This document shows positions 384-64,000 of a stretch of DNA of 64,000 nt, piece after piece. The position numbers were made by a program, and so were the translations under genes. The stretch comes from a virus. The notes under the pieces are model-generated. The model did not search any database. It was not told the origin of the DNA and saw only the letters and a program-made list of their open reading frames with translations. The DNA lies in the UHGV virus genome UHGV-1370141; one strand, written 5' to 3'. How positions within the stretch are numbered: the stretch's first letter is position 1; each line of letters opens with the position of its first letter.

Positions 384-685
384 CGTACAGTAGAGACTGG
401 CGAAACAGTCTCTACTGCTTTAACTTCTCTTTGGAAAAGTTAAAGCTATGATAAGGGGTGTGTCACCACCCCTTGTTTTTTATCAGTTACTTCTCCTTTC
501 AACTATCAACTGGGTGTTTCTTGGATAAGCAACTTTGGGCTGAGTTAACGTTGGTTGCGCTATTTCACTAACCCTTCGTTGAAATTCGAGCTGTTTTACG
601 GACAACTCGTTTAACCTTTGAAACAACTGTTCATGTTTCATGAACTTTTCTCCTATGTTGAAGTTGCGAAAATAAATAAAGTGTA

Positions 686-711
686 CCCCTAATCCTTTTC
701 GGGATTAGGGG
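686..711 (-). terminator. rho-independent-type terminator hairpin
   Basis: CCCCTAATCC-TTTTC-GGGATTAGGG stem-loop just downstream of the 718 stop; A-run on plus side (T-run on transcribed strand). Confidence 0.5.
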
Positions 712-717
712 TTGCTT

Positions 718-1803: not shown

Positions 1804-1967
1804 AAATATTTTAATTAAAACACCCTCTAAAACGCGCTGTATCGCATTCTGACGACCTTTTATTTTTTAAACACCATTAATCGTCTTAAGGTGTAAAACA
1901 GCGTCTAAGACGCGTTTACGAGTAAATAAAAGGACATCCCGTTACCCACGAAGGTAACGGGATAATT

Positions 1968-15007: not shown

Positions 15008-16312
15008 ATGAGTGACGAGACAGATAAGAACGATCCGGGGTATGACCCGAATACTGATTACGACGATTCTCTCCACAATCCGAATAACGCAGATGCGGTG
15101 CCTTCTGTTGCCGGGTATTTTAATAACCGACTCAGCAACAACAATCCGGCAACACCTTACGATGCAAACACCGAACTTACGGCATGGAACGATCGTATCC
15201 GCCTTACTGTAGGTTTGGGTCTTGCTGCGCAGCGTTTGACCAACCCCTACATGGGGTTCAACCATATGATGGCGTCTAACCCCACGCCAATCAACCGAGA
15301 ATACGGTGGTCTAACATTTATTACCCGGCCCGATTTCAACCTGTGCTACGACAACATTGCCAAGTCGCGTAAAATGTCAAACATGGCATTGCAGCCGAAG
15401 GACTCTTTAGATTATTCGATACTTGCTGCTCTCGACCCTGATTTCGAATTAGGGTTTTCGGACTCACCTGTTGAGAGCAAAACGGGGATACGAAGAAACC
15501 GCTTAGGTACTCCGTTTATGCCGCAGGTAAGATTCGATAATCTACAAGCGTTCATACCAATACTCAGTACACAGCTGATCAGTTTAAGCGGAACACCCGA
15601 TCAGTCCGTCGATAACTGGATGGCCAGTGAAGGTTTGATGCGTGAACAATGGGGTATGGTTGATTCTACGCACGAAATCAACAACGCGTTCTCTGTGTCG
15701 ATGTCCTTAAACAACCCTTACGGTGACCCATTAATGAGAATGATGGGCGTGTGGTTGGAGTATATGGCGGGTGTTAAGATGGGTAAGTTCCGTCCGAAGA
15801 TGCGCAACTCCATCCAACGACGCATTGATTACCAGTCACGTATCTACGGTCTACGTTACGATGCGTTAGGGAATATCACCCGTTTCTGGACAATTTGTGT
15901 AGCCTGGCCGATGAACGATAACGCGGGTCAAATGGCGAACGTCGATAACTCAAAACCGCAGTTAAACGACGACGTGACGATTAACATCAACTGGCAAGCA
16001 ATCGGGGCACGGTTTAACGATCCACTTTACATGGAGATGTTCAATAAAACTGTTGGGATGTTTAACCCTGATATGCTCCCGCAGCCCGGCTCAGTCGCTT
16101 CGGGGAATTTTATCCCGATGGCCAGCAGCCAACTTGTTCCTATCGCGCCACAGTTATTGCCTTTATTTAACTATTACGGTTATCCACATATCGATTCCGT
16201 ACGGCGCAAGCTTACCTGGTATGTCTACCAAGCAGACTATCAATATATTCTCAAGAAAGCAGGATTACTTGACAGTGTCAATGGTCTTGTTACAGAGGCA
16301 GGTACTAACTGA
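15008..16312 (+). CDS. hypothetical protein (434 aa), D/N/P-rich N-terminus
   Basis: ORF track; RBS GGAG 8 nt upstream. Confidence 0.65.
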   Translation: MSDETDKNDPGYDPNTDYDDSLHNPNNADAVPSVAGYFNNRLSNNNPATPYDANTELTAWNDRIRLTVGLGLAAQRLTNPYMGFNHMMASNPTPINREYGGLTFITRPDFNLCYDNIAKSRKMSNMALQPKDSLDYSILAALDPDFELGFSDSPVESKTGIRRNRLGTPFMPQVRFDNLQAFIPILSTQLISLSGTPDQSVDNWMASEGLMREQWGMVDSTHEINNAFSVSMSLNNPYGDPLMRMMGVWLEYMAGVKMGKFRPKMRNSIQRRIDYQSRIYGLRYDALGNITRFWTICVAWPMNDNAGQMANVDNSKPQLNDDVTININWQAIGARFNDPLYMEMFNKTVGMFNPDMLPQPGSVASGNFIPMASSQLVPIAPQLLPLFNYYGYPHIDSVRRKLTWYVYQADYQYILKKAGLLDSVNGLVTEAGTN

Positions 16313-19266
16313 TGAGTTCAACAACTTACGATACTTTGGCAAAGAAACTTCTGCTGTTCGCACACAACCCTGCGGCGATGCAGACAATGCTGCTAAACCA
16401 GCTTCAAGATGTTGAAGATGCCGATGGTCAGATTTATCTCCGTGACCCTACCGACCCTGTCGTTTATTTGGCAGAAATGGGAACGATGATGGGACACGCG
16501 ACGTTGATGGGGCTCCAGGAATCTATTCCTAAAACGTTCCCGTCAATGGCGCAGACTTACGATGACCTGTTCCGACACATGTCAGACGTGGATTACGTTG
16601 ACGTCTTTGCGCAGCCTGCTACTACAGAACTGTTACTGTTAATTGACGTTGACAGCTTAATCTCGAAAGCGTATCCGTTGCAAATCGCGGGGGTTCGTAA
16701 AGTCGTTATCCCACGTGACACGGTCTTTACGGTTTCTGGTTACACGTTTGCTATTCAATATCCAATTGAAATCCGCGTGCTTCCATACGGAACGAACGAG
16801 AACCCGGCTTTCCAGGTACTGTGGATTACTGAAACACAATCACCGATTTCACCGGTTTCCACGAACGCACTGGAATGGGAACTAACGTCCACTAACACAA
16901 CGTCGTCACAGCTGCTGGCTATTCATATCCCGGTTATGCAGTATGCAGTGAAAGAAGAAAGTAACACCGTCGAAGGTAACAACACTTTCGTCATGACCCG
17001 TGCTTACACTAACAAGTTCTTCTACGTTCGTGTTTGGATGAAAGCAACGGGCAGCAACAAGTGGGTAGAGATTCAGCACACCCACAGTCGCGATGTTTAC
17101 GACCCGAACACACCAACGGCGTTGATTCAGGTGGGTAACGGTAACATCCGTTGTACGATTCCGTCTATTTACATGGCGAAGAATCTCGTCAGTGGGACTA
17201 TCAGGATGGACGTCTATACGACCTTAGGGCCGTTGGAGTTAGACATCTCTGCATACCCGTCTGATGAGTATAGCTTCAGTCTACGTGACTTAAACGAAGA
17301 GTACGACGCGAACTATATCAACCCGATTAAAGCATTCTCTATTAAACAGCTTGCAGCAAAAGCTGGGAAGATGCTGTCGGGTGGTCGCAGTCAGCTCTCG
17401 TTCAGTGACTTACGTACTCGCGTTGTTAATAACGCTGTGGGTGCACGTAAACTGCCTGTGACGGAAAAGCAGCTCGAAGCTACGGTTTCCGATTACGGTC
17501 TTACGCTGTCTAAACCTAATGACTACGTGACCAGTCGTACGTACTTCATGACAGCACCGATGTTGGAATCGACGATTGCTAACGTCAGCTCACCGATTGG
17601 TACGATTACTGCGCCGTTCTATTTCTCCTGGAACGAGCTGGTTAATCTCCCGACAGTGAAAGTCAACGGTAATCGCCTGACCATTCTTCCTGACACACTC
17701 TATCGTTTTACGGATACCAGTCTGACTGTGGATGCCGAAATGACGGTGTTAGCGAAGACCATGCGTAAGGAAGACCTGATTAACGCAGCAAACACCAACC
17801 GTTATTTGTTTACACCGTTCCATTACGTTGTTGACATTAACAACAAAGCGATTGACGTGCGTATTTACCAGTTGGATAAACCGCTATTAAACTCCAAACG
17901 CTTTATTGCGACCAACGTCTCGACGGAGCTCAGCGTCGTTACTGCTGACTACACTATCGAGAAAACGGAAGCAGGTTATGTGTTGCGTACGATTACGAAG
18001 TCAGAGGCACCTTACCAGGCACTGACTGATGATCAAGTTTTTGCGCAGCTGTCTTTCCGTCCTCGTAATTCCGATAACACCTTGGCGTACATTAACGGTA
18101 CGTTAGTCGGTAAGCAGGGCAGTGAACGTGTTTGGGAGTTCTTGCTGGAAACTAACCTGGACGTTGACCGTAACGACGAACTGGTACTGACCAACACCCG
18201 TATTAACGGAAGTAACCCAACGGAAACCCCTGTCGCACTGCTGACAGATTTTAACCTGTTCTACGGTTGCACGGGTTATTACCCTGGGAACTACGAACGT
18301 GTAGAGATGGATACGTTAATCACAGCGCCTTCACGTGACGCTATCGGTATTACCCACGAGATATTCAAAATCGAACTGGGTAAAGCGATGACGTACTATT
18401 GGCGTAAAGCTCGTGCTGTTACTGACAGCATCAATTACGAGTATTACGACAAAGACGTGTTAGCGACGTGGGAAATTGACGTGGTGAAACGTGATGAGAA
18501 TGGGGTTCCGGTTTACACGTACGACGCAGGCCGTACACCACCGCTACAAATCACTTACGAACACCGTAAAGGCGATCCTAAGCTTGACGAAACCGGCCAG
18601 CAGATTATCCTACACCGCGAAGGGGACTTAGTAAAAGACGAGTACGGTAATCCTAAGATTGCGAAATCTCGTTCTATTAAGTTCCGTAGTGAAATGGCGG
18701 TCTTCGACGCACGTTATAAATTCGCTACCACAGCGTCTGCGAAATCCTATCTGAACGCAGTTATTGAGAATATCGTTAACTACGTGACCGTGGTTCTACC
18801 GACGTTAAAACCGATGTTGTTAGAACGTACGGAAGGGTATTTCGTTCCTATCACCACGATGGGTTATATCGATGCACGTACCGAAGACGGGGTGGTTACG
18901 CCGATACCGGCTGAAAACCAGTTTACCGTTCGTTATTACCTGACTGCGGCTAACCGTAGCAACAGCGATCTGTTAACGCAGATTCGTAAGAAAACGTCCC
19001 AAGTTATCAACGACTACTTGGGTTCACATCTTACTATCTCGGCAACAGAGATTGGTAATAAGCTCAGCGAAACGCTTGACACGTCGATTATCGGCGTTGA
19101 GTTGGATGCGATGGGGCCAGACAAAGACATGCGTCTGTTTACTGTGGTATCCGAAGCTGCGCGTGCAACGATTGGTAAGAGACTGGATATTGAAGCCAGT
19201 GGTGACATCGGTCTGAAAGACGATGTTGTTATCGTTTACAACCGTCACGACACCACCGCAGACTAA
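16312..19266 (+). CDS. hypothetical large protein (984 aa), possibly structural
   Basis: ORF track; start overlaps upstream stop (TGATG). Confidence 0.7.
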   Translation: MSSTTYDTLAKKLLLFAHNPAAMQTMLLNQLQDVEDADGQIYLRDPTDPVVYLAEMGTMMGHATLMGLQESIPKTFPSMAQTYDDLFRHMSDVDYVDVFAQPATTELLLLIDVDSLISKAYPLQIAGVRKVVIPRDTVFTVSGYTFAIQYPIEIRVLPYGTNENPAFQVLWITETQSPISPVSTNALEWELTSTNTTSSQLLAIHIPVMQYAVKEESNTVEGNNTFVMTRAYTNKFFYVRVWMKATGSNKWVEIQHTHSRDVYDPNTPTALIQVGNGNIRCTIPSIYMAKNLVSGTIRMDVYTTLGPLELDISAYPSDEYSFSLRDLNEEYDANYINPIKAFSIKQLAAKAGKMLSGGRSQLSFSDLRTRVVNNAVGARKLPVTEKQLEATVSDYGLTLSKPNDYVTSRTYFMTAPMLESTIANVSSPIGTITAPFYFSWNELVNLPTVKVNGNRLTILPDTLYRFTDTSLTVDAEMTVLAKTMRKEDLINAANTNRYLFTPFHYVVDINNKAIDVRIYQLDKPLLNSKRFIATNVSTELSVVTADYTIEKTEAGYVLRTITKSEAPYQALTDDQVFAQLSFRPRNSDNTLAYINGTLVGKQGSERVWEFLLETNLDVDRNDELVLTNTRINGSNPTETPVALLTDFNLFYGCTGYYPGNYERVEMDTLITAPSRDAIGITHEIFKIELGKAMTYYWRKARAVTDSINYEYYDKDVLATWEIDVVKRDENGVPVYTYDAGRTPPLQITYEHRKGDPKLDETGQQIILHREGDLVKDEYGNPKIAKSRSIKFRSEMAVFDARYKFATTASAKSYLNAVIENIVNYVTVVLPTLKPMLLERTEGYFVPITTMGYIDARTEDGVVTPIPAENQFTVRYYLTAANRSNSDLLTQIRKKTSQVINDYLGSHLTISATEIGNKLSETLDTSIIGVELDAMGPDKDMRLFTVVSEAARATIGKRLDIEASGDIGLKDDVVIVYNRHDTTAD

Positions 19267-19318
19267 AAAAAAATAAAAGCTACCCTACTCCCGAAAAGGA
19301 GTAGGGTACTTCTTTTTT
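19265..19318. terminator. bidirectional terminator between convergent genes
   Basis: A-run, TACCCTACTCC-loop-GGAGTAGGGTA, T-run. Confidence 0.6.
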
Positions 19319-20990
19319 AGTCGACGAGTTTATTAAACTTCCCACCTTTTACCAGTGGGTTGTTCTTAGCCCGTTTCAGAATCGTCGCCAGCGCACCGGC
19401 GGCAGTTGTCCAGGACTTAATCAGTTCCGTCGTAAACGCAACAGAATCCCACACGTTTCGGTCTGGGTCCATCACGGTCATCGTCGTCAATTCACGACCG
19501 ATACCCAATTCGTACAGATCTGAACGTTGTGCTTCGTCACGGAACGCTTGTTCCATCATCTGCCAAGCTTTGCTGTTCATACCAGAACGCGATTGGCGAG
19601 ACATGTCTTTCAACTGGCTAACCACTTTCTCGATCTGTTTCTCTACCACTTTGAAACGGTCAAGAGACGTATCGGCTGGCCCTTTGGTAATACCGCTACG
19701 GACTAACGTAATCAGACACGCTAACAGTTCACGAGAATCACCGCTGGTAAAGCTCAGCTCCTGGCGCATAATTTCCATGTTAGCCGCAGAACCGAAATAC
19801 GAGTTAACCCCCGCAGAAGCGATAATGAAACCATTACCGAACTCACGAGATGAATAGCCGATTAAGTCACGATCGGATTTCACCATTATCGTCGGTAACG
19901 GTGCGCCACGGCACGATGCAAAATCAGTTAACGCTATTTCAATTTCACCGTTAAGTAACGCCAGTGCTTGAACAATGCCCGTTGCGCTAATACGGTTTTC
20001 TTGATCCGTACCCAGCGTGCGGTCACCCGAGAAGTAATAGGTCTTGAGGTCTTTTAACGACTGTTCTAAACGTTTTAACCCTGCGGAGAAGCTCTCCAGG
20101 TTTCTTCCCATCTGGCGGTAGAACGCTTCGTTAGGAATGTTGACACCTGCTTTACGAACGTCCGCCGGTAAACCTTTGTACACTTCGTCACAAACCTGCT
20201 GACTGAATACTGCACAACCGACATTAGTACGCAGCAACGTATCGAGGATATCGTGGATAACCTGCTGTTCATTCTGACGACGTTTCGTGTAGTCTTTAAA
20301 CATCCCTACGAACGGAGAACGTCCCAGAGCTGCGCTAAGCTTATTCAACAGGTCTTCTGCGTTCATGTTCGTCAGGACTTCATCGGCCATCAGAATAGCC
20401 AATTCCAGGTTATTCAGTTCACCGTCTTTCAGTCCCTTCGACGCGTCCATATACGCTTCTTTCAGCGCGGTGATTTTCAGACGTTCAATGAAAGGAACCG
20501 CATCGATCTTCTCTAAGAGTTTGTCACGATACTCGTCCCCATCTACGTCAGCAGCCCCTGCAAACGGTACAGCGTTACTGATAATCCAGTTCAGGATTTT
20601 CATAATCCCCATCATTACCATCACGATAAGACTGATCTTACCGAAGTTCGCGTAAGACTCTAGCGCGATGACGGTTTCTTTCTGATGAGTACGGCTGTAG
20701 TTCGACGTCAGGATGCTCTGCACCGCTTTCGGAATGGTACCTGGACGCAAAGATTCCGTCGCTACGGCAACGTCACGGTTTAGACCCGCTTTACGAACTT
20801 CACGAAGAATCGCTTCAATCTGCGCGATAATACGTGAACCGTAAATCAAATCGGCTTCGTTACGCTGCATGTAGAGGTTGAGCTGGCTGACAGAATCGAT
20901 ACGTTCTTCCATTCGCTGTTCGATAATAGTTGGAAGTTCGTCGAGTTTCCATTGCGGTTGTGCAATGTTTGCTGTCATTTCCATACTCAT
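19317..20990 (-). CDS. hypothetical protein (557 aa) with one hydrophobic segment
   Basis: ORF track; ISLIVMVMMGIMKILNWIISNAV looks transmembrane. Confidence 0.6.
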   Translation of the reverse strand: MSMEMTANIAQPQWKLDELPTIIEQRMEERIDSVSQLNLYMQRNEADLIYGSRIIAQIEAILREVRKAGLNRDVAVATESLRPGTIPKAVQSILTSNYSRTHQKETVIALESYANFGKISLIVMVMMGIMKILNWIISNAVPFAGAADVDGDEYRDKLLEKIDAVPFIERLKITALKEAYMDASKGLKDGELNNLELAILMADEVLTNMNAEDLLNKLSAALGRSPFVGMFKDYTKRRQNEQQVIHDILDTLLRTNVGCAVFSQQVCDEVYKGLPADVRKAGVNIPNEAFYRQMGRNLESFSAGLKRLEQSLKDLKTYYFSGDRTLGTDQENRISATGIVQALALLNGEIEIALTDFASCRGAPLPTIMVKSDRDLIGYSSREFGNGFIIASAGVNSYFGSAANMEIMRQELSFTSGDSRELLACLITLVRSGITKGPADTSLDRFKVVEKQIEKVVSQLKDMSRQSRSGMNSKAWQMMEQAFRDEAQRSDLYELGIGRELTTMTVMDPDRNVWDSVAFTTELIKSWTTAAGALATILKRAKNNPLVKGGKFNKLVD

Positions 20991-21444: not shown

Positions 21445-22779
21445 TTAATCGACGTTAAACATGGCAGAAGCGATACGGAGGTCATTCGACATATACTTCC
21501 CGATAGCGCGCTGATAATCCACCGCAGCACGGTCACGACGCCCTTTCGGTGTCAGCGTCTTCCAGATAAACTGATACAGGTTATCTTTGTCTTTAACCGT
21601 AAGTAGAATTCGATCAATTACCGCGATACCATCCAGAATGCGTTTACGTTGCTCGTTAGCCGCTTTCGTGTTTTTGTCTTTGATGGTATTCAGTTCTTCT
21701 ACCAGCGTACGGCGCATCGCTTCAAAACGTTCCTGCGGCGGATCGTAGATGGTGTTATCTGGGTCGTTCAGAATCATGCCAAACGTAACAGAGATAACCG
21801 GAAGAATCGGAATGGCAGCTTGGGCAATCAGCGCAGTCACACGGAACAACTCAATCGTCAGGTGAACACCCATGTTCATATACGACGAGTTACGCAGCAG
21901 ATAGAACGGGCTGGTTTCCATTTTGTACAGCGCAGAAGCTAAGTACGGGGCCGCACCAAAGCGGGCAGCGAAGTCGTCAGCAGCACGTTCCCAGGTACGG
22001 TTTGCAAAGCCTTGACTACCGCTAATGAACGGACGGTCTAACAGCAAATCTGTTACCAGGTGCATGTAGACGTTTTCTTTCTTGTACTCAGTGCAGATGG
22101 TCTCTGGCTGATTCACTTTCGTGTTCAGCATTCGTTCAACGTCTTTAACCACACGTAAACGAACAGCTGGGTCTTCGCTTTCCATGATACGGTTAGCCGC
22201 AGCGTCTGCCAGTAAATCCGTTACCACGGTACGCATCAGCGTACGGAAGTAATAATAAATGTGACCGACTTCATGAAGGATTACCGCAGCAACCTCCAAA
22301 TCGGTGAGCTCCAGTTTCTCCAACAGCACCGGGGTCAGGTAAAGCGGGGAACTGACTTTGCTCAAGTCGCCGCTGATTTTCGCACTGGAATCGTCAATGG
22401 TGCTGTTCAGTTCGTTTTCTTTAATGAACTTACTGTACATGTCCAGGTCTTTATTACCTGCGTACAGTGCGCGCGCCATTGACGCAATTACCGGACTGTT
22501 CGCGTCCAGTTTAGGCGGTTCTACACCTGCAAAGGCAACGTCGAATAAACCGAGTTCGCTACCGTTCTTAAAGTTAATGCTAATACCGTTGGTTTTAAAT
22601 ACCCAATCAGAAACACCAGAACTCTCGTAACCGGCCGGACTAAAGTCTCCGGCTGCACGAAATTTAGCAATAATGTCTGCCAGTTCTGCGAGTTTCTTTT
22701 TATCTTGGAATTTAATCGATTCTGCGGCTACAACCTTTGCATCCGCAACTGATGCAATGTGATTTTGCCAGTATCCCAT
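21445..22779 (-). CDS. putative zinc metallopeptidase-like protein (HExxH)
   Basis: HEVGH motif; start moved to internal ATG with RBS AAGGAAA (track start 22812 is GTG without SD). Confidence 0.5.
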   Translation of the reverse strand: MGYWQNHIASVADAKVVAAESIKFQDKKKLAELADIIAKFRAAGDFSPAGYESSGVSDWVFKTNGISINFKNGSELGLFDVAFAGVEPPKLDANSPVIASMARALYAGNKDLDMYSKFIKENELNSTIDDSSAKISGDLSKVSSPLYLTPVLLEKLELTDLEVAAVILHEVGHIYYYFRTLMRTVVTDLLADAAANRIMESEDPAVRLRVVKDVERMLNTKVNQPETICTEYKKENVYMHLVTDLLLDRPFISGSQGFANRTWERAADDFAARFGAAPYLASALYKMETSPFYLLRNSSYMNMGVHLTIELFRVTALIAQAAIPILPVISVTFGMILNDPDNTIYDPPQERFEAMRRTLVEELNTIKDKNTKAANEQRKRILDGIAVIDRILLTVKDKDNLYQFIWKTLTPKGRRDRAAVDYQRAIGKYMSNDLRIASAMFNVD

Positions 22780-22850
22780 TTGTGTTTCCTTTTGAGAAAT
22801 TACATTACCCACAAATCAGTATAGCAGCCGCTAGATTTGAGAGTGAAAAC

Positions 22851-24632
22851 ATGAATAACTATTACGCACCGGAAGACGTTGTTGCCAAAGAGTGCAAATT
22901 TGTTTCGTACGCAACCGATCAGCAGAAAGAAAACGACTTCGTGCTCATAAAGGAGGTCGTCCATACTAAAGATGGCAGATTCATCCCGCGTATCGTCATG
23001 CGTGAAAATCTGAAACGGCCTATCTACATTACTTTACCGCAACACCGTAACCATCAAGAAAAGAAAGAATACGAAGAACGCAGTAAGTGTCAGGAATACA
23101 TGACCACGGATGTGATGATGTCGCAAACTATCCAGATGGGTCTAGGGGCAAGATTTCCTGACAAAAAACGTTCATTACGTCAAGTCTGTACCTCTCCGTA
23201 CGTTTACTGGGCTGACTTACCCATCACCAGCTGGATTAAAGAAAGATATATAAAGAAATGGCCTAACGCCGTTTCACCTAATCGTATTTGCGTATACGAC
23301 GTGGAAACTCGAGAAGAAGACAAATCTCGAGATCCTTGGATTATGAGTTTTGTTTTGGATGACGAAATTCATTTCTTCGCAACGAAAGACTACGTTACAC
23401 GTTGTGGTCGTGAGAACTTCGAAACGCGACTAATTAAACGTGCTCAGGAGTTACTTTCTAAAATTGCTTTTCGTGGCAAAGACAAAGAAGGCAATTCTAA
23501 GACCGAAATCAAGGACGTTATCGCTGGATATAAAATCTTCGTTTACGAATGCTTAAACTCTGGCTGCTGTATTCAACGCATGTTTGAAGAGATTCACCCT
23601 CGTCTACCTGACTTATTAGTTGCATGGAACCACGAGTTCGATATTTCACGCATGTTAGAAGCACTAGAAGCCGCAGGGATTCCACCGGAAGACGTCTTTT
23701 GTCATCCTGATGTACCGAAACAATACCGTCGTGTTTACTTCAAGAAAGACGAAGCATCGAAGAAAACGGAATCGAAATCACTGACCAAAGCGCCTTCACA
23801 ACAGTGGCACGTACTTTATTGTACCGCATCGTTCTACTGTGTGGATGCAATGTGTCTATTTCGTTCACTGCGGGTTCACGAAGGTCAACGTCCTTCTTAC
23901 AAACTTAACGCTATTCTGGAAACCGAACTGGGCTTAAACAAGTTAGACTTGCCAGAGCTGCCTTACGAGGAGAAACTGGAATGGCACTTAAAAGCACAGA
24001 AAGAATTCCCGCTCGAATACTGCGTTTATAACATCTTCGATAACCTGATGATTGTGTTGTTGGATAAAAAGACGAACGACCTGTCTTCGGCAATTTCCGT
24101 ACTGGCAGGTTATTCGATGTACGATATCTTCCCTTCGTTACCGAAACGTATTTGTATTGCTTACACCTATTACCTTTATGAACAAGGGTTGGTTATCGGT
24201 TGTGTAGGTAGTGCAATGCGTAATGATTTCGATGAAGAGGTTATCGGTACGGACGGTTGGATTGTTACGTTAACTGCGTGTATGAACGCGGAAAACGGTC
24301 TGCGAGGAATCATTAAAGAGTTTGATGATTTCTACACTGCATTCCGTGGGCAAACCGCAGATGCGGACTTAACCCAGGCGTATCCTTCTGCAACGAACAT
24401 GATGAACCAGTCTCGTGAAACAACGTTAATCGAGTTACTGAGCATTCACGGTGTTCCTGAAGAAGTACGACGTCGTGTAGGGATTAACCTTACCGCAGGG
24501 CGTGTTAATGCAATGGAAATCGCAACAGACTTCTTCTTACTGCCAGATAAGAACGTTGTTTTAGAAGCATTCTTACGCCGTCAAGGTGAGGCTATTACCG
24601 ATCCGTTTGAATACATCAAAACCACTCACTAA
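22851..24632 (+). CDS. DEDDy-type 3'-5' exonuclease domain protein (possible N-terminal part of a split family-B DNA polymerase)
   Basis: Exo I VYDVETRE, Exo II WNHEFDISRM, Exo III YNIFD in the correct order and spacing; start moved to ATG at 22851. Confidence 0.55.
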   Translation: MNNYYAPEDVVAKECKFVSYATDQQKENDFVLIKEVVHTKDGRFIPRIVMRENLKRPIYITLPQHRNHQEKKEYEERSKCQEYMTTDVMMSQTIQMGLGARFPDKKRSLRQVCTSPYVYWADLPITSWIKERYIKKWPNAVSPNRICVYDVETREEDKSRDPWIMSFVLDDEIHFFATKDYVTRCGRENFETRLIKRAQELLSKIAFRGKDKEGNSKTEIKDVIAGYKIFVYECLNSGCCIQRMFEEIHPRLPDLLVAWNHEFDISRMLEALEAAGIPPEDVFCHPDVPKQYRRVYFKKDEASKKTESKSLTKAPSQQWHVLYCTASFYCVDAMCLFRSLRVHEGQRPSYKLNAILETELGLNKLDLPELPYEEKLEWHLKAQKEFPLEYCVYNIFDNLMIVLLDKKTNDLSSAISVLAGYSMYDIFPSLPKRICIAYTYYLYEQGLVIGCVGSAMRNDFDEEVIGTDGWIVTLTACMNAENGLRGIIKEFDDFYTAFRGQTADADLTQAYPSATNMMNQSRETTLIELLSIHGVPEEVRRRVGINLTAGRVNAMEIATDFFLLPDKNVVLEAFLRRQGEAITDPFEYIKTTH

Positions 24633-24673
24633 GAAAAAATAAAAGCTACCCTACTCCTCTCGGGAGTAGGGTA
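24633..24673. terminator. terminator between convergent genes
   Basis: A-run, TACCCTACTCC-TCTCG-GGAGTAGGGTA; stem identical to the 19281 hairpin. Confidence 0.55.
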
Positions 24674-24680
24674 ATGCTTA

Positions 24681-25190
24681 TTAAGCCGCGTTGAAGCAGT
24701 ACGCCAGCAGCTGTTGTAGCTCTGGGTCAGCTACGCGTTGCAGCAGACGGTTAACGTTGTCACGTTGTGCGAAGTTTGCTTTATCTTGAGAGTTAGCAAA
24801 ACGTACCAGCATGTTGATAAACACCACGTAAGTTTCACGTTCAGCAGAATCGTGGAACCAATCCAGGTGGTAGTTCACATTCGGGTAATAGAAGATGCTA
24901 CGCTTGTGTTTAATCGCAGCAGCAACGAAAACGTTAAAAGCGTCGATAAACGCTTGACCACGCAGTTCAAACAGGCTACGGAAAGACTGATGCAGTTTAC
25001 GGAAAGCGTCGTCTGCTTCCGACGTGTTTTTCGGTTTGTTGGTACCGATGGTATTCCCTGCTTCGTCTAACTGCGCAGCAATAAGGTTTACCTGATAAGA
25101 GTCATCTTGGCTATAAGCTACTGCCGCTTCTGCGGAGCGCTTAACAGCAGCGGGACGAGCATCTTGGGTAGAAATGTCTTTGGTTGCCAT
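24681..25190 (-). CDS. hypothetical protein (169 aa)
   Basis: ORF track. Confidence 0.55.
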   Translation of the reverse strand: MATKDISTQDARPAAVKRSAEAAVAYSQDDSYQVNLIAAQLDEAGNTIGTNKPKNTSEADDAFRKLHQSFRSLFELRGQAFIDAFNVFVAAAIKHKRSIFYYPNVNYHLDWFHDSAERETYVVFINMLVRFANSQDKANFAQRDNVNRLLQRVADPELQQLLAYCFNAA

Positions 25191-27378: not shown

Positions 27379-27420
27379 AAAAAAAGAAAAAGCTAAGGGA
27401 GTCTATTAAGACTCCCTTAA
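27377..27420 (-). terminator. terminator hairpin
   Basis: A-run then AAGGGAGTC-TATTAA-GACTCCCTT. Confidence 0.55.
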
Positions 27421-32417: not shown

Positions 32418-32459
32418 GCTCCCCTCTTACAAAAAAAGAGGGGCGCAGGCCCCTCTCGT

Positions 32460-37186: not shown

Positions 37187-37215
37187 AAAAAGAAGGGACA
37201 CTGTCCCTTCTTTTT
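37184..37215. terminator. bidirectional terminator
   Basis: A-run, GAAGGGAC-ACT-GTCCCTTC, T-run. Confidence 0.6.
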
Positions 37216-46498: not shown

Positions 46499-48456
46499 CT
46501 ACCCCGCCATTAAGATTAATTCTGAGTCGATGGCGATACCCGCCTCCAGATCTTCTTCGGTATCGCGTAAGAAACGGTTTTCCATGCTGATAAGCTCATT
46601 GTGTAACACCATGCTGCTAGACACTTCGTCTACGTTTGTGCTGGACATAAATCCGTTATCTGGGCGATAAGCCAGCGCCAAATCCATCTCCGTGGTATCG
46701 ACTAAAAGTCTAACCTGTAATTGGTCGCCGTCGAAATCCTGTTTGTCCACTCCATTCCTTTTGGAGCAGGTGTGCAATGACACCCTCCCATGTTTTCACA
46801 TGGGCACAGACTATATCATAACCGTAGGTATTGCTACCCGTAGGTCTCCCCCACTTCGCCGCTAAACTAAGCAGCTACTCTACTCGGTTTTACCCTTTCG
46901 ATAGTCGTTGAACGATTTTCATCGCTGCTGGTTATCCATTATCACAACCCTTAGCATTATTGGTTAGCATAGGCTATCTTACGAATTGTTTCTGACTTTC
47001 GCCACCCTGTCGGGATCGTAAGCTTTAGGAGTTTCCAGCAATTCGAGGGATACGCACTAGAGGTTTCCCGTCTAGTGGGCCAAATTTTAGCATTCGGAGC
47101 TTTGATGACGCGATCGGAGATACGTAACGAACACTGTGTAACATCAGGGTTAACAGCTGAGATAAATAATGTCTGAATAGACAACTGTACAAGCGTCGGG
47201 TTTCGTAGCGCTGATATCATCAGGCCGTAACCGCCACGAGACTCCTTAATAAGTTCGTTGATAATTTCATGAACCAACGGTACGTACTGCATTGATGCAA
47301 ATGCAATAACACGTTCACACTGCCGTGGTGTGAAGTTCCGTCGACCGAGTTTGTTTTCAATAGCTACAGATTCTAACGTCACTAGCCAACGCCAAGGTGC
47401 AATAACCTTCATAGCGTCATGCGGTTCTGAGATTGGAGAGATTGTTACACGACCACCCCACGGGATGTGTGTTGAACCTAACTTGGCACGATAGAATCCA
47501 GGTTTACCTTCCATCACCTCCTGACGATGGTCAATATAGAAGTACGCTAACTGGCGATTTGCTTTTAATGCGCGACTAATAATGAAATGGGTTGGGATGC
47601 GTCGTGCATTAGTATAAAGTAACGCGATGTTCTTAACCGCGTCTATTGCACCGGTATAAACAGGATCGATAAAGATACCCTGACGTCGTTCCTCCGTAAC
47701 GATCAGTTTGGGTGAAATGATTGGAAGATGAACCGGAAAGAAAGTGTGTGATTGTTCTTCGAAGAACTTTTTCCACTCTAAGCGAGTACGTTCGCTCTCA
47801 TATCGGTTATTTTTCGTTGGTGGATAAATTTCTTTCCAGACTTCAGGAGAAGTTAAGATATTGAATATTGTTCGATGGTGGTCAATAAAATTCCTAATGC
47901 CGCGTGGAACTTGATACTCGCTAAAGATACGTTTGATTATTCGGGATCGAGTACCTTCGTCTTTATCAGGTTTATAGCACGGATCTAACATCCACATCAA
48001 TAAATCAGAACCACGTTCTACGGTCACTTTGTTTCGGTTAAACTTCTTAAGTTTAGAACCGAAGAAAGCGTTAAACATCGACCAGAATCGTGGGTTAATA
48101 AAGTTGCCTATTTCCTCCGGGGCACGAATCCAGACTTCTGAAACAATACGATGTTCTGTCACTACATAGCCGCAGGTAGGACATCGCATACCGAGATTAT
48201 ATCGATGAACGATAGGTGCTTCACAATCAATACTACAAATGGGTGCCGAATTTAGCGTCTCGTCGACTGTCCGGTTCTGTAAGATTCGGTTAATCAACTC
48301 TGACGTCTCAATGGTGTCTTTATATTTCGCAACATCATTGATAATCATCGGCGGTTTATAGCCCTTTTCCTCCGCCTCTTTGAAAGCGTCACGTAACATT
48401 TTATCGTGACTGATTAATCGCCCTGATACACCGAAGTATTGTAATCTGTCTTTCAC
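46499..48456 (-). CDS. RNA polymerase beta'-like subunit, N-terminal module; intron-interrupted (exon 1 ~47150..48456, exon 2 46499..~46783)
   Basis: exon 1: Zn finger CSIDC...CPTCG, GKPGFYRAKLG...GGRVTISP, ISALRNPTLVQLSIQTLF; exon 2: HTCSKRNGVDKQDFDGDQ ... FMSSTNV. Confidence 0.65.
46784..47150 (-). other. group I self-splicing intron (no internal ORF)
   Basis: minus-strand GTTCAACGACTA (R-like) and GATATAGTCTG (S-like) P7 elements, P9-like hairpin before exon 2, frame change between exons, no RBS; boundaries approximate. Confidence 0.65.
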
Positions 48457-54125: not shown

Positions 54126-54165
54126 AAAAAAGAAAAAAAAAATAAACCCTCTCCGAAGAGAGGGT
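54126..54165 (-). terminator. terminator hairpin
   Basis: long A-run then ACCCTCTC-CGAA-GAGAGGGT. Confidence 0.55.
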
Positions 54166-58318: not shown

Positions 58319-59131
58319 ATGAGTGTCATCGACTACTGTCTACGGAGAATACGTCGAGAGATTCCAGAACCGATTCTTCGCGCTGCGTTTGTACCCAAAA
58401 ATCTTCGCTATTACGGTGTTGCGTCTTCCTTAGATAACGAGATTACTGAAAAGGTATTTAAAGAATACCTTATCCCAGAAGTTTCCCGTCTAGGTCAATA
58501 CACCGAAATCGACCTCCAAGGTTTACCTTTTGAGAACGACACCCAGGATTACTACTCACGTATCTATTACCTGGATGACATTAAGACCGGGGGTAGACCG
58601 ATACTGGACGTCCACATTGCCGTAACGCCGGTGGCAGGGCAAGCGTACACCTTACCCCCAGCAGGATCTTATTTAGACGGGGCAACTTCAGGGGTGCTGG
58701 CCTCCACGCAACAAGTAGTGGATAGTCAATCTGCAATGCCGCGTATCTCCTCACCCGAAGTTAAGAAACTTGGGCCGAACACCATCAAAATCAAAGACCC
58801 AGGAATGTTCGTCTACGCAACTAAGCTTCAAGTTAAGTTTGCAATGTCTGATGACTTAAACGAAATCAAACCGGCCTTCTATCCGGTAGTTGCAGATATG
58901 GCACTGTACGCCACTAAGCAGGTCATCTACAACAAAATGATTTTCGATATGGATTCAGGTCATCTTGAAAACGGTATGGAGTTCGGGGCGTTTAAAAACG
59001 TTATCGAAGGCTATTCCGACGCCGGGGAAATGTTCAACGACAACCTACCACGCCTACAGCGTGCGATGGTTCACAACGACGACGCAGGCAACCGTTACAA
59101 CTACATGTCTGGCGGTCGTTTCAAATCTTAA
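58319..59131 (+). CDS. hypothetical protein (270 aa)
   Basis: ORF track; RBS AGGAG. Confidence 0.6.
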   Translation: MSVIDYCLRRIRREIPEPILRAAFVPKNLRYYGVASSLDNEITEKVFKEYLIPEVSRLGQYTEIDLQGLPFENDTQDYYSRIYYLDDIKTGGRPILDVHIAVTPVAGQAYTLPPAGSYLDGATSGVLASTQQVVDSQSAMPRISSPEVKKLGPNTIKIKDPGMFVYATKLQVKFAMSDDLNEIKPAFYPVVADMALYATKQVIYNKMIFDMDSGHLENGMEFGAFKNVIEGYSDAGEMFNDNLPRLQRAMVHNDDAGNRYNYMSGGRFKS

Positions 59132-59174
59132 CAAAAAAAGAAAACCTACCCACTACTCCGTTCGAGTAGTGGGT
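59132..59174. terminator. bidirectional terminator
   Basis: A-run then ACCCACTACTC-CGTTC-GAGTAGTGGGT. Confidence 0.55.
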
Positions 59175-59184
59175 CTTATCGTTT

Positions 59185-59565
59185 TCACTGCAACATATTT
59201 TTTAAATGACATGCGGTTCCTGTTGTCCATGCCACACCGTTGCGAATGTTTTCAGGTTGGGCATTCACAAGTCGACGTAAAGAAATGATATTCTCCGCAG
59301 GGCCAGCAATCGGTAAGCTGTACGGAACCGTCATCTCTGCCATATATTGCACGACATCATCGTAACCCTCAGGTACACCCCAGTCGATGACTGAACCTTC
59401 AGCAATATCGCTGTAGCGTGTATTTTTGTATTCGTCAGGATGTAATACAAACCCCCACTCTAAAGACGAGATAAGTTTTTTGTCTAACTCGCACCGTAGA
59501 GTAATTTTACTCAATGCGTCCGGGTGCACCAAAATCACGTCCAGCGGACGCAGTGTAGTATTCAT
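59185..59565 (-). CDS. hypothetical protein (126 aa)
   Basis: ORF track. Confidence 0.5.
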   Translation of the reverse strand: MNTTLRPLDVILVHPDALSKITLRCELDKKLISSLEWGFVLHPDEYKNTRYSDIAEGSVIDWGVPEGYDDVVQYMAEMTVPYSLPIAGPAENIISLRRLVNAQPENIRNGVAWTTGTACHLKNMLQ

Positions 59566-60601: not shown

Positions 60602-60638
60602 AAAAAAGAATATACCTACCTCCTTTCGGAGGTAGGTA
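60602..60638 (-). terminator. terminator hairpin
   Basis: A-run then TACCTACCTCC-TTTC-GGAGGTAGGTA. Confidence 0.55.
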
Positions 60639-61388: not shown

Positions 61389-62041
61389 TTCTGTTACCTC
61401 GTTCTGTTACTACTACTCGTTCTGTTGTACGTCGCTATACCCCGACGTGTGGGTTAATGGGACGCGTTGAACGTCTGTTGAGGCGCAGCAGGCAGTGGCA
61501 GCAATGACAGCAAGGGCAGCAATGGTACAAACGCCAACGCGAATAAAAAACGCTACTGTCACTGAACACAGCTTCAGAATACTGACAATAACGCAAAAAG
61601 GGTGTCGCTAACGGGTGTCGAGCCCCAGCCTCGGTGTGTAGCCACGTCACCAGGCATAGCGACAAAGTTCGGTACTGGTCAAACACAGCATGACATGGGA
61701 CGATGAAGGTTTACAGGTGATCATCGACCAGTACCGTCGAGTTAACACGTAACTCTCAATTCACATTACAGGGTATTCACGTTACACTTAGGGGAAATAC
61801 CCAATAATTAAATTCTTGGTGGGTGCAGGTGGGAGGTTTTATCCTCCCACCGTACAACCGTTTAGGTGGTCTAACCACCAGGGTCTCACGACCCTAACGT
61901 AAGTCCGAACTTAATCGGTAGGTGTTTACACGTTTTTAAGGAGCTTTCTACCCGTGAGCAAGAGCAGAAGTTATCAGAACAACCGACGCTCAGTTGAAGG
62001 CTGACGAGTTTGTAACTCTTGTTCGATTGCTCTAATCTGGG

Positions 62042-62114
62042 CGACCAATGGCAGGATTCGAACCTGCGAAATAACCGATTATTAGTCGGGTGTTAATTCC
62101 TCTAACTTCAATGG
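62042..62114 (-). tRNA. tRNA-like gene, possibly degenerate (anticodon loop reads as AAU)
   Basis: hand-folded cloverleaf: T-arm GCAGG-TTCGAAT-CCTGC, D-arm GTTA/TAAC with GG loop; but A at position 8, a U-U acceptor mismatch and a C-U anticodon-stem mismatch. Confidence 0.4.
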
Positions 62115-62124
62115 TCTAAATCCA

Positions 62125-63858: not shown

Positions 63859-63977
63859 TTTTATATATATTTATATATAATATATATTATATATAATAAT
63901 TATATTATTAATATATTTATTTAATATATTTATATTTATTAAAATAAATATATATTAAAATATATAATTAAATAATA
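63859..63977. repeat. 119-bp tract of pure A+T
   Basis: no G or C between ~63859 and ~63977; TATATA/ATTAT-type low complexity. Confidence 0.7.
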
Positions 63978-64000
63978 CCAAAAGGTATTATTATTTTGAT

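What the first reader, a model, noticed from the sequence alone, without database searches (positions are those of the whole stretch)
19281..19308. Terminator hairpins reuse the same stem sequence
The hairpins at 19281-19308 and 24647-24673 have identical 11-bp stems (TACCCTACTCC/GGAGTAGGGTA) with different loops. Those at 59148-59174 (ACCCACTACTC) and 60613-60638 (TACCTACCTCC) are close relatives. Sequence conservation beyond what base pairing requires suggests recognition by a protein or by the phage RNAP, or a small repeat family.
Basis: seen in the sequence. Interest (0 to 1): 0.4.

Follow-up and report, generated by a model that had tools for sequence, protein, structure and literature searches.

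The report
Jumbo-phage terminator hairpins sharing one stem
Two transcription-stop hairpins between convergent genes of a giant SPN3US-like phage have exactly the same 11-bp stem; they belong to a stereotyped terminator family of this phage group whose copies appear to be kept alike, a local variation on something already described for phage phiKZ.

Summary
19281-19308 and 24647-24673 are perfect hairpins with the same stem, TACCCTACTCC/GGAGTAGGGTA, and different loops. They also share a 13-nt flank, which reads GCTTTTATTTTTT on the minus strand. Both fill the gap between convergent genes, so they are bidirectional intrinsic terminators.

The window comes from a jumbo phage about 73% identical to Erwinia phage Asesino and Salmonella phage SPN3US. 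In SPN3US, 26 of 41 intergenic T-tract hairpins have a C-rich 5' arm, against 4 with the opposite polarity. Many have UUCG loops and TTAT tails. This matches the design of the published phiKZ and 201phi2-1 terminator motif.

The exact stem occurs at 17 loci in IMG/VR, and every contig I checked for homology is a relative of this phage group. It occurs once in 596 Gb of bacterial genomes. Two matched control stems gave no IMG/VR hits.

Five sites carry this exact stem in two relatives. In Asesino and SPN3US the same five sites carry stems that differ from one another. That points to homogenisation (concerted evolution) in the window's clade.

Between the window and a 97%-identical relative, three loops are exactly inverted while stems and flanks stay unchanged. 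This fits template switching.

Recognition by a protein or by the phage RNA polymerase is not shown. The hairpin at 59148 resembles the others only in composition.

The parts
19281..19308 (.). Bidirectional intrinsic terminator hairpin ('site C'): TACCCTACTCC cgaaaa GGAGTAGGGTA. It lies between the convergent genes 16312..19266 (+) and 19317..20990 (-).
   Evidence: -24.2 kcal/mol on the minus strand, -21.8 on the plus strand. Orthologous hairpins in 10 relatives are shown.
19267..19280 (-). A-rich tract on the + strand, which is the T-tract GCTTTTATTTTTTT following the hairpin on the minus strand. It includes a TTAT.
   Evidence: It is identical to the tract at 24633-24646.
19309..19318 (+). 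T-tract CTTCTTTTTT following the hairpin on the + strand. It overlaps the stop codon of the minus-strand gene.
24647..24673 (.). Terminator hairpin ('site B') with the same 11-bp stem and the loop tctcg. It lies between the DNA polymerase gene 22737..24632 (+) and 24681..25190 (-).
24633..24646 (-). A-rich tract on the + strand, which is the T-tract GCTTTTATTTTTTC on the minus strand. The + strand tail (atgcttatta) is a weak T-tract.
685..712 (.). Family member ACCCCTAATCC ttttcg GGATTAGGGGT. On the + strand its loop and tail (tgcttttattt) match those of the minus strand of 19281-19308.
   Evidence: It is identical in three relatives.
59148..59174 (.). Terminator hairpin ACCCACTACTC cgttc GAGTAGTGGGT between the convergent genes 58319..59131 (+) and 59185..59565 (-). 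It shares the polarity and composition of the family, not the sequence.
60613..60638 (-). Unidirectional terminator TACCTACCTCC tttc GGAGGTAGGTA between co-directional minus-strand genes. Three relatives carry C.A on the + strand, which is G.U on the minus (coding) strand.
54146..54165 (-). Short family member ACCCTCTC cgaa GAGAGGGT. On the minus strand it has a UUCG loop and a long T-tract. Relatives show compensated stem changes.
27394..27419 (-). Terminator of opposite arm polarity ('site A'): TAAGGGAGTCT atta AGACTCCCTTA. This stem is conserved at the site in distant relatives. The loop is exactly inverted in the 97%-identical relative.
37187..37215 (.). 13-bp palindromic hairpin at a convergent junction: AAAAAGAAGGGAC act GTCCCTTCTTTTT. 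The loop difference to the close relative (act versus agt) could be an inversion or a point change.
1936..1963 (.). 11-bp hairpin ATCCCGTTACC cacgaa GGTAACGGGAT with TTAT tails. It is a looser family member.

Best explanation
Both hairpins are Rho-independent terminators. They stop transcription from both directions at convergent gene junctions of an SPN3US/Asesino-like jumbo phage.

They belong to a lineage-wide, stereotyped terminator family with these features:
- A C-rich, nearly G-free 5' arm built from C-runs and (C)TAC units.
- A purine-rich 3' arm.
- A C-G closing pair.
- A free loop, often UUCG.
- A tail of the type N(0-3)-TTTTATTTT.

This is the same design as the published conserved terminator motif of phiKZ and 201phi2-1.

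The exact identity of the two stems is neither chance nor plain descent. Within the window's clade, several terminators that were originally different have been homogenised to TACCCTACTCC. The most likely route is occasional copying between similar hairpins, by ectopic template switching or short-tract gene conversion during replication and recombination.

The same DNA-level process acting within one hairpin keeps the stems perfectly Watson-Crick and flips the loops.

Shown here: the anatomy, gene context, covariation, lineage restriction, polarity bias, the homogenisation pattern and the loop inversions. Inferred: that 3' ends form at these sites, which polymerase terminates there, and the copying mechanism.
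For: Anatomy and context:
- Perfect 11-bp stems, T-tracts and very stable folds.
- Both hairpins sit 8-14 nt from the stops of convergent genes.
- 6 of 7 convergent junctions in the window carry such a palindrome.

RNA-level structure:
- At orthologous sites in 10 relatives the stems change only by compensated pairs. At site C the four loop-proximal pairs CTCC/GGAG are invariant.
- Relatives of 60613, and SPN3US at site e, carry G.U on the coding strand only.

Family:
- SPN3US has 41 intergenic T-tract hairpins: 26 with a C-rich 5' arm versus 4 with the reverse polarity (p = 6e-5), and 17 G-free arms versus 0 C-free arms.
- 17 of them have UUCG loops.
- TTAT tails are enriched (p about 0.0015).
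- Stems share long substrings beyond what composition gives (0 of 500 shuffles).
- The closing pair is C-G in 34 of 34, and the TA dinucleotide is 2.5-fold enriched.
- phiKZ motif: 5'-BCCYCCCCHWWDGGGRRGGBYTTATKYYGT-3' at 61 terminators with mapped 3' ends (PMC10914365). 201phi2-1 motif A at 59 terminators; eight 201phi2-1 terminators, chosen to cover its motifs, terminated in vivo (PMC11512511).

Lineage restriction:
- 17 IMG/VR loci carry the exact stem, and all are intergenic just after a stop codon. Every contig checked for homology is an SPN3US relative.
- Only 1 hit in 596 Gb of bacterial genomes.
- The arm-swapped and reversed-arm control stems gave 0 hits.

Homogenisation:
- Contigs 113438 and 029126 carry TACCCTACTCC at five sites (B, C, c, d, e).
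- SPN3US has at those sites CCTCTCTACC, CTACCCTCTCC, CTTACCCACTCCC, CTACCTACTCC and CCCTCTCC.
- Asesino has TACCCACTCC, CTACCTACTCC, CTACCCACTCC, CTACCTACTCC and CCCTCTCC.
- The two outgroups agree with each other at sites c, d and e, so those ancestral sites differed from one another.

Loop flips:
- Window versus contig 095954 (97% identical): cgaaaa/ttttcg, tctcg/cgaga and atta/taat are exact inversions with identical stems and flanks.
- Contig 113438 versus 029126 shows tccg/cgga at site C.
- Template switching is a documented cause of loop inversion and of perfect stems (PMC8794818).
Against: - No transcript 3' ends are available for this phage or any SPN3US-like phage, so termination is inferred.
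- The + strand tails at 24647 and 59148 are weak T-tracts, so termination of the + strand genes may be inefficient or may depend on polymerase collisions.
- Copying between loci is inferred from the pattern alone. No conversion tract beyond the stem is visible, and directional selection for one sequence would give the same pattern.
- In the window itself the polarity bias is weak (8 versus 6).
- Only two exact copies are visible for the window's own lineage. The 151-kb contig of its closest relative also has only two.
Confidence: 0.6

Rival explanations
1. Sequence-specific recognition. The stem sequence is read by a phage-encoded factor. Candidates are the phage multisubunit RNAPs during termination, an RNA-binding or export factor such as ChmC, or a 3'-end-protecting protein. 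Directional selection then drives many terminators towards the factor's preferred sequence, and that sequence drifts between clades.
For: - Clade-specific identical stems at five sites.
- Top-of-stem CTCC/GGAG invariant at site C across relatives whose neighbouring protein is only 31-44% identical.
- The same stem is present in relatives at 24-30% protein identity and 30-34% GC.
- Matched control stems are absent from IMG/VR.
- A strong arm-polarity bias shared with phiKZ.
- ChmC is reported to bind phage mRNA with high affinity (PMC13282480).
Against: - Loops, the usual protein-contact surface, vary freely in sequence and length (3-8 nt) and even in orientation.
- Other terminators in the same genomes keep different stems that are stable over the same period: 685, 9625, 27394 (opposite polarity) and 48486.
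- Tested 201phi2-1 terminators also work with a host RNAP in vivo, so no special factor is needed for termination.
Confidence: 0.2
2. Nothing beyond ordinary terminator evolution. The stems descend from old duplications or similar ancestral sequences, they evolve slowly because every change needs compensation, and they are drawn from a narrow functional 'grammar'. Identity at two sites is then a coincidence within that small sequence space.
For: - Stems evolve much more slowly than loops or flanks. Few pair changes are seen between window and 113438 orthologues at about 82% overall identity.
- Sites B and C are already nearly identical in phiEaH2 (TACCCACTCC at both).
- The grammar is restrictive.
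Against: - Only 3 of 20,000 composition-matched shuffles give identity.
- The excess of shared long substrings persists after controlling for composition.
- Sites d and e are conserved between Asesino and SPN3US, yet both were replaced by TACCCTACTCC in the window clade. At site e this included a change from an 8-bp to an 11-bp stem and a new loop.
- The T/A pair that distinguishes TACCCTACTCC from TACCCACTCC is present at both B and C in the same lineage.
Confidence: 0.13
3. A DNA-level element rather than an RNA terminator. Candidates are a small mobile repeat (MITE- or REP-like), a palindromic operator for a dimeric DNA-binding protein, or a recognition word (like USS/DUS uptake sequences or Chi) that happens to be placed as inverted pairs in intergenic DNA.
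For: - Multi-copy and lineage-restricted.
- There is precedent for function-bearing words forming terminator stems in Haemophilus and Neisseria (the title and abstract of PMC1852404 link terminators to DNA uptake; the USS/DUS specifics are from my own knowledge).
Against: - There are no single copies of the word outside the hairpins. Matches with up to 2 mismatches are at chance level (19 versus 10.8 +/- 3.8, including the 4 arms).
- The sites are positionally stable across genera, with no presence/absence polymorphism.
- There is no homology beyond the stem plus T-tract and no target-site duplication.
- The variable arm spacing (3-8 nt) is incompatible with a fixed dimer operator.
- G.U pairs on the coding strand only point to RNA pairing.
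Confidence: 0.04

Closest known systems
Conserved intrinsic terminator motif of Pseudomonas jumbo phages phiKZ (5'-BCCYCCCCHWWDGGGRRGGBYTTATKYYGT-3', 61 sites) and 201phi2-1 (motif A, 59 sites); PMC10914365, PMC11512511
   Same: - Dozens of near-stereotyped hairpin terminators per jumbo-phage genome.
- A pyrimidine/C-rich 5' arm, a purine-rich 3' arm and a short free loop.
- A T-tract containing TTAT a few nt after the stem.
- Both kinds of phage carry their own multisubunit RNAP genes.
   Different: - The stem here is 10-13 bp and built from C-runs interrupted by TAC (TACCCTACTCC), not the 7-bp CCYCCCC.
- The phiKZ consensus does not match.
- The two focal sites lie between convergent genes and are perfectly palindromic.
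- No 3'-end mapping exists for this clade.
- I did not find homogenisation between sites or loop flipping in the passages of the phiKZ and 201phi2-1 papers that I read.
Bidirectional Rho-independent terminators at convergent genes in bacteria
   Same: A symmetric hairpin flanked by an A-tract and a T-tract, shared by two convergent genes, occupying almost the whole intergenic gap.
   Different: - The stems here are longer, always perfect, and drawn from a lineage-specific vocabulary.
- By the same crude filter, such hairpins are far denser here: 42 in the 240-kb SPN3US genome, against 3 in 100 kb of E. coli K-12 and 1 in the first 50 kb of T4.
Terminator stems made of repeated functional words (USS/DUS uptake sequences as inverted pairs in Haemophilus and Neisseria; PMC1852404 for the terminator-DNA uptake link, details from my own knowledge)
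   Same: Many terminators in one genome reuse the same stem sequence.
   Different: In those cases the word is also abundant as single copies and has a known DNA-level function. Here the word occurs only inside hairpins.
Template-switch mutations that create, repair and invert hairpins (PMC8794818), and minute hairpin-loop inversions in chloroplast DNA (the latter from my own knowledge)
   Same: Exact loop inversions between unchanged perfect arms, one-step compensated stem changes, and stems kept perfectly paired.
   Different: - Here this is seen in phage terminators, at high frequency: 3 unambiguous flips among 9 hairpins with stems of at least 11 bp, at about 3% divergence.
- Copying between different loci is proposed in addition, which that model does not cover.

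Membership tests
Rho-independent (intrinsic) terminator | Stable G+C-containing RNA hairpin | tested here: met
   11 perfect pairs (6 G-C). The minimum free energy is -21.8 to -24.2 kcal/mol, with z-scores of -3.9 to -5.0 against shuffles.
Rho-independent (intrinsic) terminator | U-tract immediately 3' of the stem | tested here: met
   On the minus strand both sites have GCTTTTATTTTTT. On the + strand 19281 has CTTCTTTTTT, and 24647 has only the weak tail atgcttatta.
Rho-independent (intrinsic) terminator | Located just downstream of a gene's stop codon | tested here: met
   The hairpins are 14 and 8 nt (site C) and 14 and 7 nt (site B) from the stops of the flanking genes. All 18 copies found elsewhere lie 4-22 nt after a stop.
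Rho-independent (intrinsic) terminator | Pairing conserved through compensated changes in relatives (structure, not sequence, is essential) | tested here: met
   Every orthologous stem in 10 relatives is perfectly paired although pairs 5-10 vary. G.U occurs on the coding strand only.
Rho-independent (intrinsic) terminator | Transcript 3' ends map to the U-tract | not testable with these tools
   No RNA data are available for this phage. This was shown only for the analogous phiKZ and 201phi2-1 motifs.
Bidirectional terminator | Lies between convergent genes, with an A-tract upstream and a T-tract downstream | tested here: met
   19281, 24647 and 59148 lie between + and - genes. The tract symmetry is good at 19281 and weaker at the other two.
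phiKZ-type conserved jumbo-phage terminator motif | Pyrimidine-rich 5' arm, purine-rich 3' arm, many copies per genome | tested here: met
   SPN3US has 26 versus 4 by polarity and 17 G-free arms versus 0 C-free arms. The window has 8 versus 6.
phiKZ-type conserved jumbo-phage terminator motif | Match to the consensus BCCYCCCC-HWWD-GGGRRGG (7-bp C-run stem) | tested here: not met
   The stem is TACCCTACTCC (11 bp, with TAC interruptions). The sequences read do not fit the consensus quoted.
phiKZ-type conserved jumbo-phage terminator motif | TTAT a few nt after the stem | tested here: met
   Both focal sites have GC-TTTTATTTT. TTAT is enriched in tails (10 of 17 in the window, 23 of 41 in SPN3US; p about 0.015 and 0.0015) and mostly starts 4-6 nt after the stem.
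Mobile miniature repeat (MITE/REP-like) | Extended homology between copies, target-site duplication, presence/absence among relatives | tested here: not met
   Only the stem and T-tract are shared. The sites are positionally fixed across genera.
Functional DNA word embedded in terminators (USS/DUS-like) | The word is over-represented as single copies outside hairpins | tested here: not met
   There are no exact copies outside the four arms. Near-matches are at chance level.
Palindromic operator for a dimeric DNA-binding protein | Fixed spacing between half-sites | tested here: not met
   Among copies with the identical stem, the spacing between arms is 4 to 8 nt and the loops invert.

The most novel reading that the evidence does not exclude
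The stem is a lineage-specific recognition tag on the 3' ends of phage mRNAs. It would be read by the phage's own machinery, either as a termination specificity of the non-virion or virion RNAP or as a mark for ChmC-type binding and export from the phage nucleus. The tag would co-evolve with that factor, which would explain why whole sets of terminators switch to the same new sequence within a clade.
Probability: 0.12. Interest if true: 0.7.

Novelty: new member of a known kind. Interest (0 to 1): 0.38.

Why it matters
- It extends the conserved-terminator phenomenon from the Pseudomonas phages phiKZ and 201phi2-1 to the enterobacterial SPN3US/Asesino group. This points to a shared constraint across phages that carry their own multisubunit RNA polymerases.
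- It gives a compact set of predicted strong bidirectional terminators that could be used as genetic parts.
- It documents two evolutionary processes in phage regulatory DNA that are rarely shown: frequent loop flipping within perfect palindromes, and apparent homogenisation of different terminators to one sequence.
- If the sequence preference turned out to be read by the phage polymerase or an mRNA-handling factor, it would offer a way into how nucleus-forming phages mark or finish their transcripts.

Tried and rejected
I replaced it with a loop-anchored pair count.
- A control for arm polarity in host-RNAP-dependent genomes failed for lack of data. The same filter finds only 3 hairpins in 100 kb of E. 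coli K-12 and 1 in the first 50 kb of T4. Whether the C-rich-first polarity is specific to these phages therefore remains untested.
- A single-protein search for related loci found only close relatives. An alignment query was needed.
- Literature searches found no description of terminators in SPN3US-like phages.
- Rfam has no family covering these hairpins.
- I considered and rejected an assembly artefact as the cause of the loop inversions. Switching strands inside an 11-nt arm would need k-mers of 12 or less.
- I considered SbcCD-type palindrome cleavage as the trigger for conversion. The phages encode SbcD-like proteins, but from my own knowledge 28-bp hairpins are far shorter than known SbcCD substrates.
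- The fourth 'inversion' (37187, act versus agt) was downgraded, because a single central substitution gives the same result.

Full report
**What is there.** The four hairpins are at the stated coordinates.
- 19281-19308 is TACCCTACTCC cgaaaa GGAGTAGGGTA.
- 24647-24673 is TACCCTACTCC tctcg GGAGTAGGGTA.
- The 11-mer occurs nowhere else in the window. About 0.03 exact hits would be expected for a random 11-mer.
- Only 3 of 20,000 shuffles of the arm that keep its composition reproduce it.
Both sites are preceded on the + strand by aaaaaataaaagc, so on the minus strand both read hairpin + GCTTTTATTTTTT.
- A further hairpin, 685-712 (ACCCCTAATCC ttttcg GGATTAGGGGT tgcttttattt), has the same loop and tail as the minus strand of 19281-19308, with a covarying stem.
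- Of the two 'close relatives', 60613 is 2 edits away (p about 0.017 given composition). 59148 is 4 edits away (p about 0.25), so it resembles the others only in composition and polarity.

**Context.** The window is a jumbo phage about 73% identical in DNA to Erwinia phage Asesino and phiEaH2 and to Salmonella phage SPN3US. It is not in the phage collection itself.
- 19281-19308 fills the 50-nt gap between a virion structural gene (16312..19266, +) and 19317..20990 (-).
- 24647-24673 fills the gap between a DNA polymerase gene (22737..24632, +) and 24681..25190 (-).
- 59148 is also at a convergent junction. 60613 lies between co-directional minus-strand genes.
- On a crude ORF map, six of the seven convergent junctions in the window carry a long perfect palindrome.
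- The RNAs fold at -22 to -31 kcal/mol, far below shuffles.
- With T-tracts on one or both sides, these have the anatomy of intrinsic terminators. Those at convergent junctions look bidirectional.

**Evidence that the RNA structure is the selected unit.**
- At three orthologous sites (A = 27394, B = 24647, C = 19281) in ten related genomes, every stem is perfectly paired while the sequence changes by compensated pairs.
- In three relatives, 60613 has C.A on the + strand, which is G.U on the minus strand. That is the strand of the flanking genes.
- SPN3US site e likewise has a G.U pair on the coding strand.

**A lineage-wide family.** In the complete SPN3US genome I found 41 intergenic hairpins with T-tracts.
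- 26 have a C-rich 5' arm and 4 the reverse polarity (p = 6e-5).
- 17 arms are G-free and none is C-free.
- 17 loops are UUCG.
- TTAT is enriched in the tails, mostly 4-6 nt after the stem.
- The arms share long substrings far more often than composition-preserving shuffles do (0 of 500). SPN3US itself reuses CCCTCTTACC-UUCG three times and TACCCACTCCC twice.
- The arms follow a grammar: the closing pair is C-G in 34 of 34, and C-runs are interrupted by (C)TAC, with the TA dinucleotide 2.5-fold enriched.
- This matches the published conserved terminator motif of phiKZ, 5'-BCCYCCCCHWWDGGGRRGGBYTTATKYYGT-3', found at 61 terminators with mapped 3' ends (PMC10914365). It also matches 201phi2-1 motif A at 59 terminators; eight 201phi2-1 terminators chosen to cover its motifs terminated in vivo (PMC11512511).
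- The phiKZ consensus itself does not match here.

**The exact stem is lineage-restricted.**
- TACCCTACTCC-N(3-8)-GGAGTAGGGTA occurs at 17 loci in IMG/VR. There are five copies in each of two 220-225-kb contigs.
- Every copy is intergenic, 4-22 nt after a stop codon, and most are at convergent junctions.
- Every contig I checked for homology is an SPN3US relative. This includes AT-rich contigs (30-34% GC) whose proteins are only 24-37% identical.
- The same pattern occurs once in 596 Gb of bacterial genomes, in a small MAG contig.
- The arm-swapped version and a reversed-order arm of the same composition gave no IMG/VR hits.

**Homogenisation.** In contigs 113438 and 029126 (about 82% identical to the window), five sites carry the identical stem: B, C and three more (c, d, e).

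| Site | Window clade (113438, 029126) | SPN3US | Asesino |
|---|---|---|---|
| B | TACCCTACTCC | CCTCTCTACC | TACCCACTCC |
| C | TACCCTACTCC | CTACCCTCTCC | CTACCTACTCC |
| c | TACCCTACTCC | CTTACCCACTCCC | CTACCCACTCC |
| d | TACCCTACTCC | CTACCTACTCC | CTACCTACTCC |
| e | TACCCTACTCC | CCCTCTCC-ttcg | CCCTCTCC-ttcg |

- The two outgroup genera agree with each other at sites c, d and e, so those ancestral sites differed from one another. The window clade replaced all five with one sequence. At site e this also changed the stem length and the loop.
- Other terminators in the same genomes (685, 9625, 27394, 48486) kept their own stems.
- This pattern is concerted evolution of a subset of similar terminators. 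I attribute it to occasional copying between hairpins. Directional selection by a co-evolving factor would give the same pattern and cannot be excluded.

**Loop flipping.**
- Against contig 095954 (97-98% identical over most of the window, 94.6% at its left end), three loops are exact inversions with unchanged stems and flanks: 19281 (cgaaaa/ttttcg), 24647 (tctcg/cgaga) and 27394 (atta/taat).
- A fourth, 37187 (act/agt), is ambiguous.
- None of the hairpins with 8-9-bp stems flipped.
- Contigs 113438 and 029126 (95-97% identical to each other) differ by tccg/cgga at site C.
- One-step compensated stem changes are also seen at 388 and 54146.
- These are the signatures of intra-palindrome template switching, which also explains why the stems stay perfect (PMC8794818).

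**Alternatives.**
- A mobile repeat, a DNA recognition word or a dimer operator are each contradicted. The sites are positionally fixed, there are no single copies of the word, the arm spacing varies, and G.U pairs occur on one strand only.
- A trans-acting reader of the stem remains possible. It is disfavoured by the free loops and by the coexistence of stable, different stems in the same genomes.

**Verdict.** The feature is an ordinary kind of element (an intrinsic, often bidirectional terminator) belonging to a conserved jumbo-phage terminator class already described in phiKZ-like phages. Two secondary findings are specific to this analysis: homogenisation between sites and loop flipping.

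Noticed in passing
window 19281-19308, 24647-24673, 27394-27419 (and possibly 37187-37215), compared with L025/L047 (IMGVR_UViG_3300045988_095954): The loops of long-stem hairpins are exactly inverted between two genomes that are about 97% identical, while stems and flanks are unchanged. No hairpin with an 8-9-bp stem flipped. This suggests a very high flip rate and possibly mixed orientations within a population.
   Followed up: partly
window 46787-47099 (-): Rfam group I intron (RF00028, 63.7 bits, full-length model match) lying between ORFs 46499..46783 and 46957..48456 on the same strand. This is probably an intron-split gene.
   Followed up: no
window 62040-62116 (-): A tRNA gene. ARAGORN calls it tRNA-Ile with anticodon AAT, and Rfam scores it at 40 bits as tRNA. 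Asesino annotates a tRNA-Ile(aat) too.
   Followed up: no
window 32421-32456: Two overlapping, mutually exclusive hairpins (CCCCTCTT acaaaaa AAGAGGGG and AGAGGGGC gcag GCCCCTCT) share the middle segment. The whole arrangement is 100% conserved in three relatives. It could be a terminator with an alternative pairing partner.
   Followed up: no
window 63860-63992: An extremely AT-rich stretch of overlapping TATATA-type palindromes and sigma-70-like hexamers at the window's end. It could be a promoter cluster or an origin-like region.
   Followed up: no
SPN3US (L021-L023): record positions 67345, 94154, 180981: SPN3US reuses a different stem with the same loop, CCCTCTTACC ttcg GGTAAGAGGG, at three co-directional junctions with unrelated flanks. 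Stem reuse is therefore general in this phage group, with different favourite stems in different genomes.
   Followed up: partly
L003 3860-3898 and 7341-7376; L016 12385-12424 (AT-rich distant relatives): 16-17-bp palindromes CATAATACC(C)TACTC.. are preceded by a conserved aaaaaatatat(a/g)tgt flank in three copies. In these low-GC relatives the family stem is embedded in a larger repeated intergenic element.
   Followed up: no
SPN3US whole genome versus E. coli K-12 (L051, L052) and T4 (L053): By one crude filter (perfect stem of at least 6 bp, at least 4 G/C, T-tract, intergenic in SPN3US and E. coli; the T4 scan was not restricted to intergenic regions), SPN3US has 42 hairpins in 240 kb. E. 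coli has 3 in 100 kb and T4 has 1 in its first 50 kb. Perfect-stem terminators are unusually dense in this phage group.
   Followed up: partly
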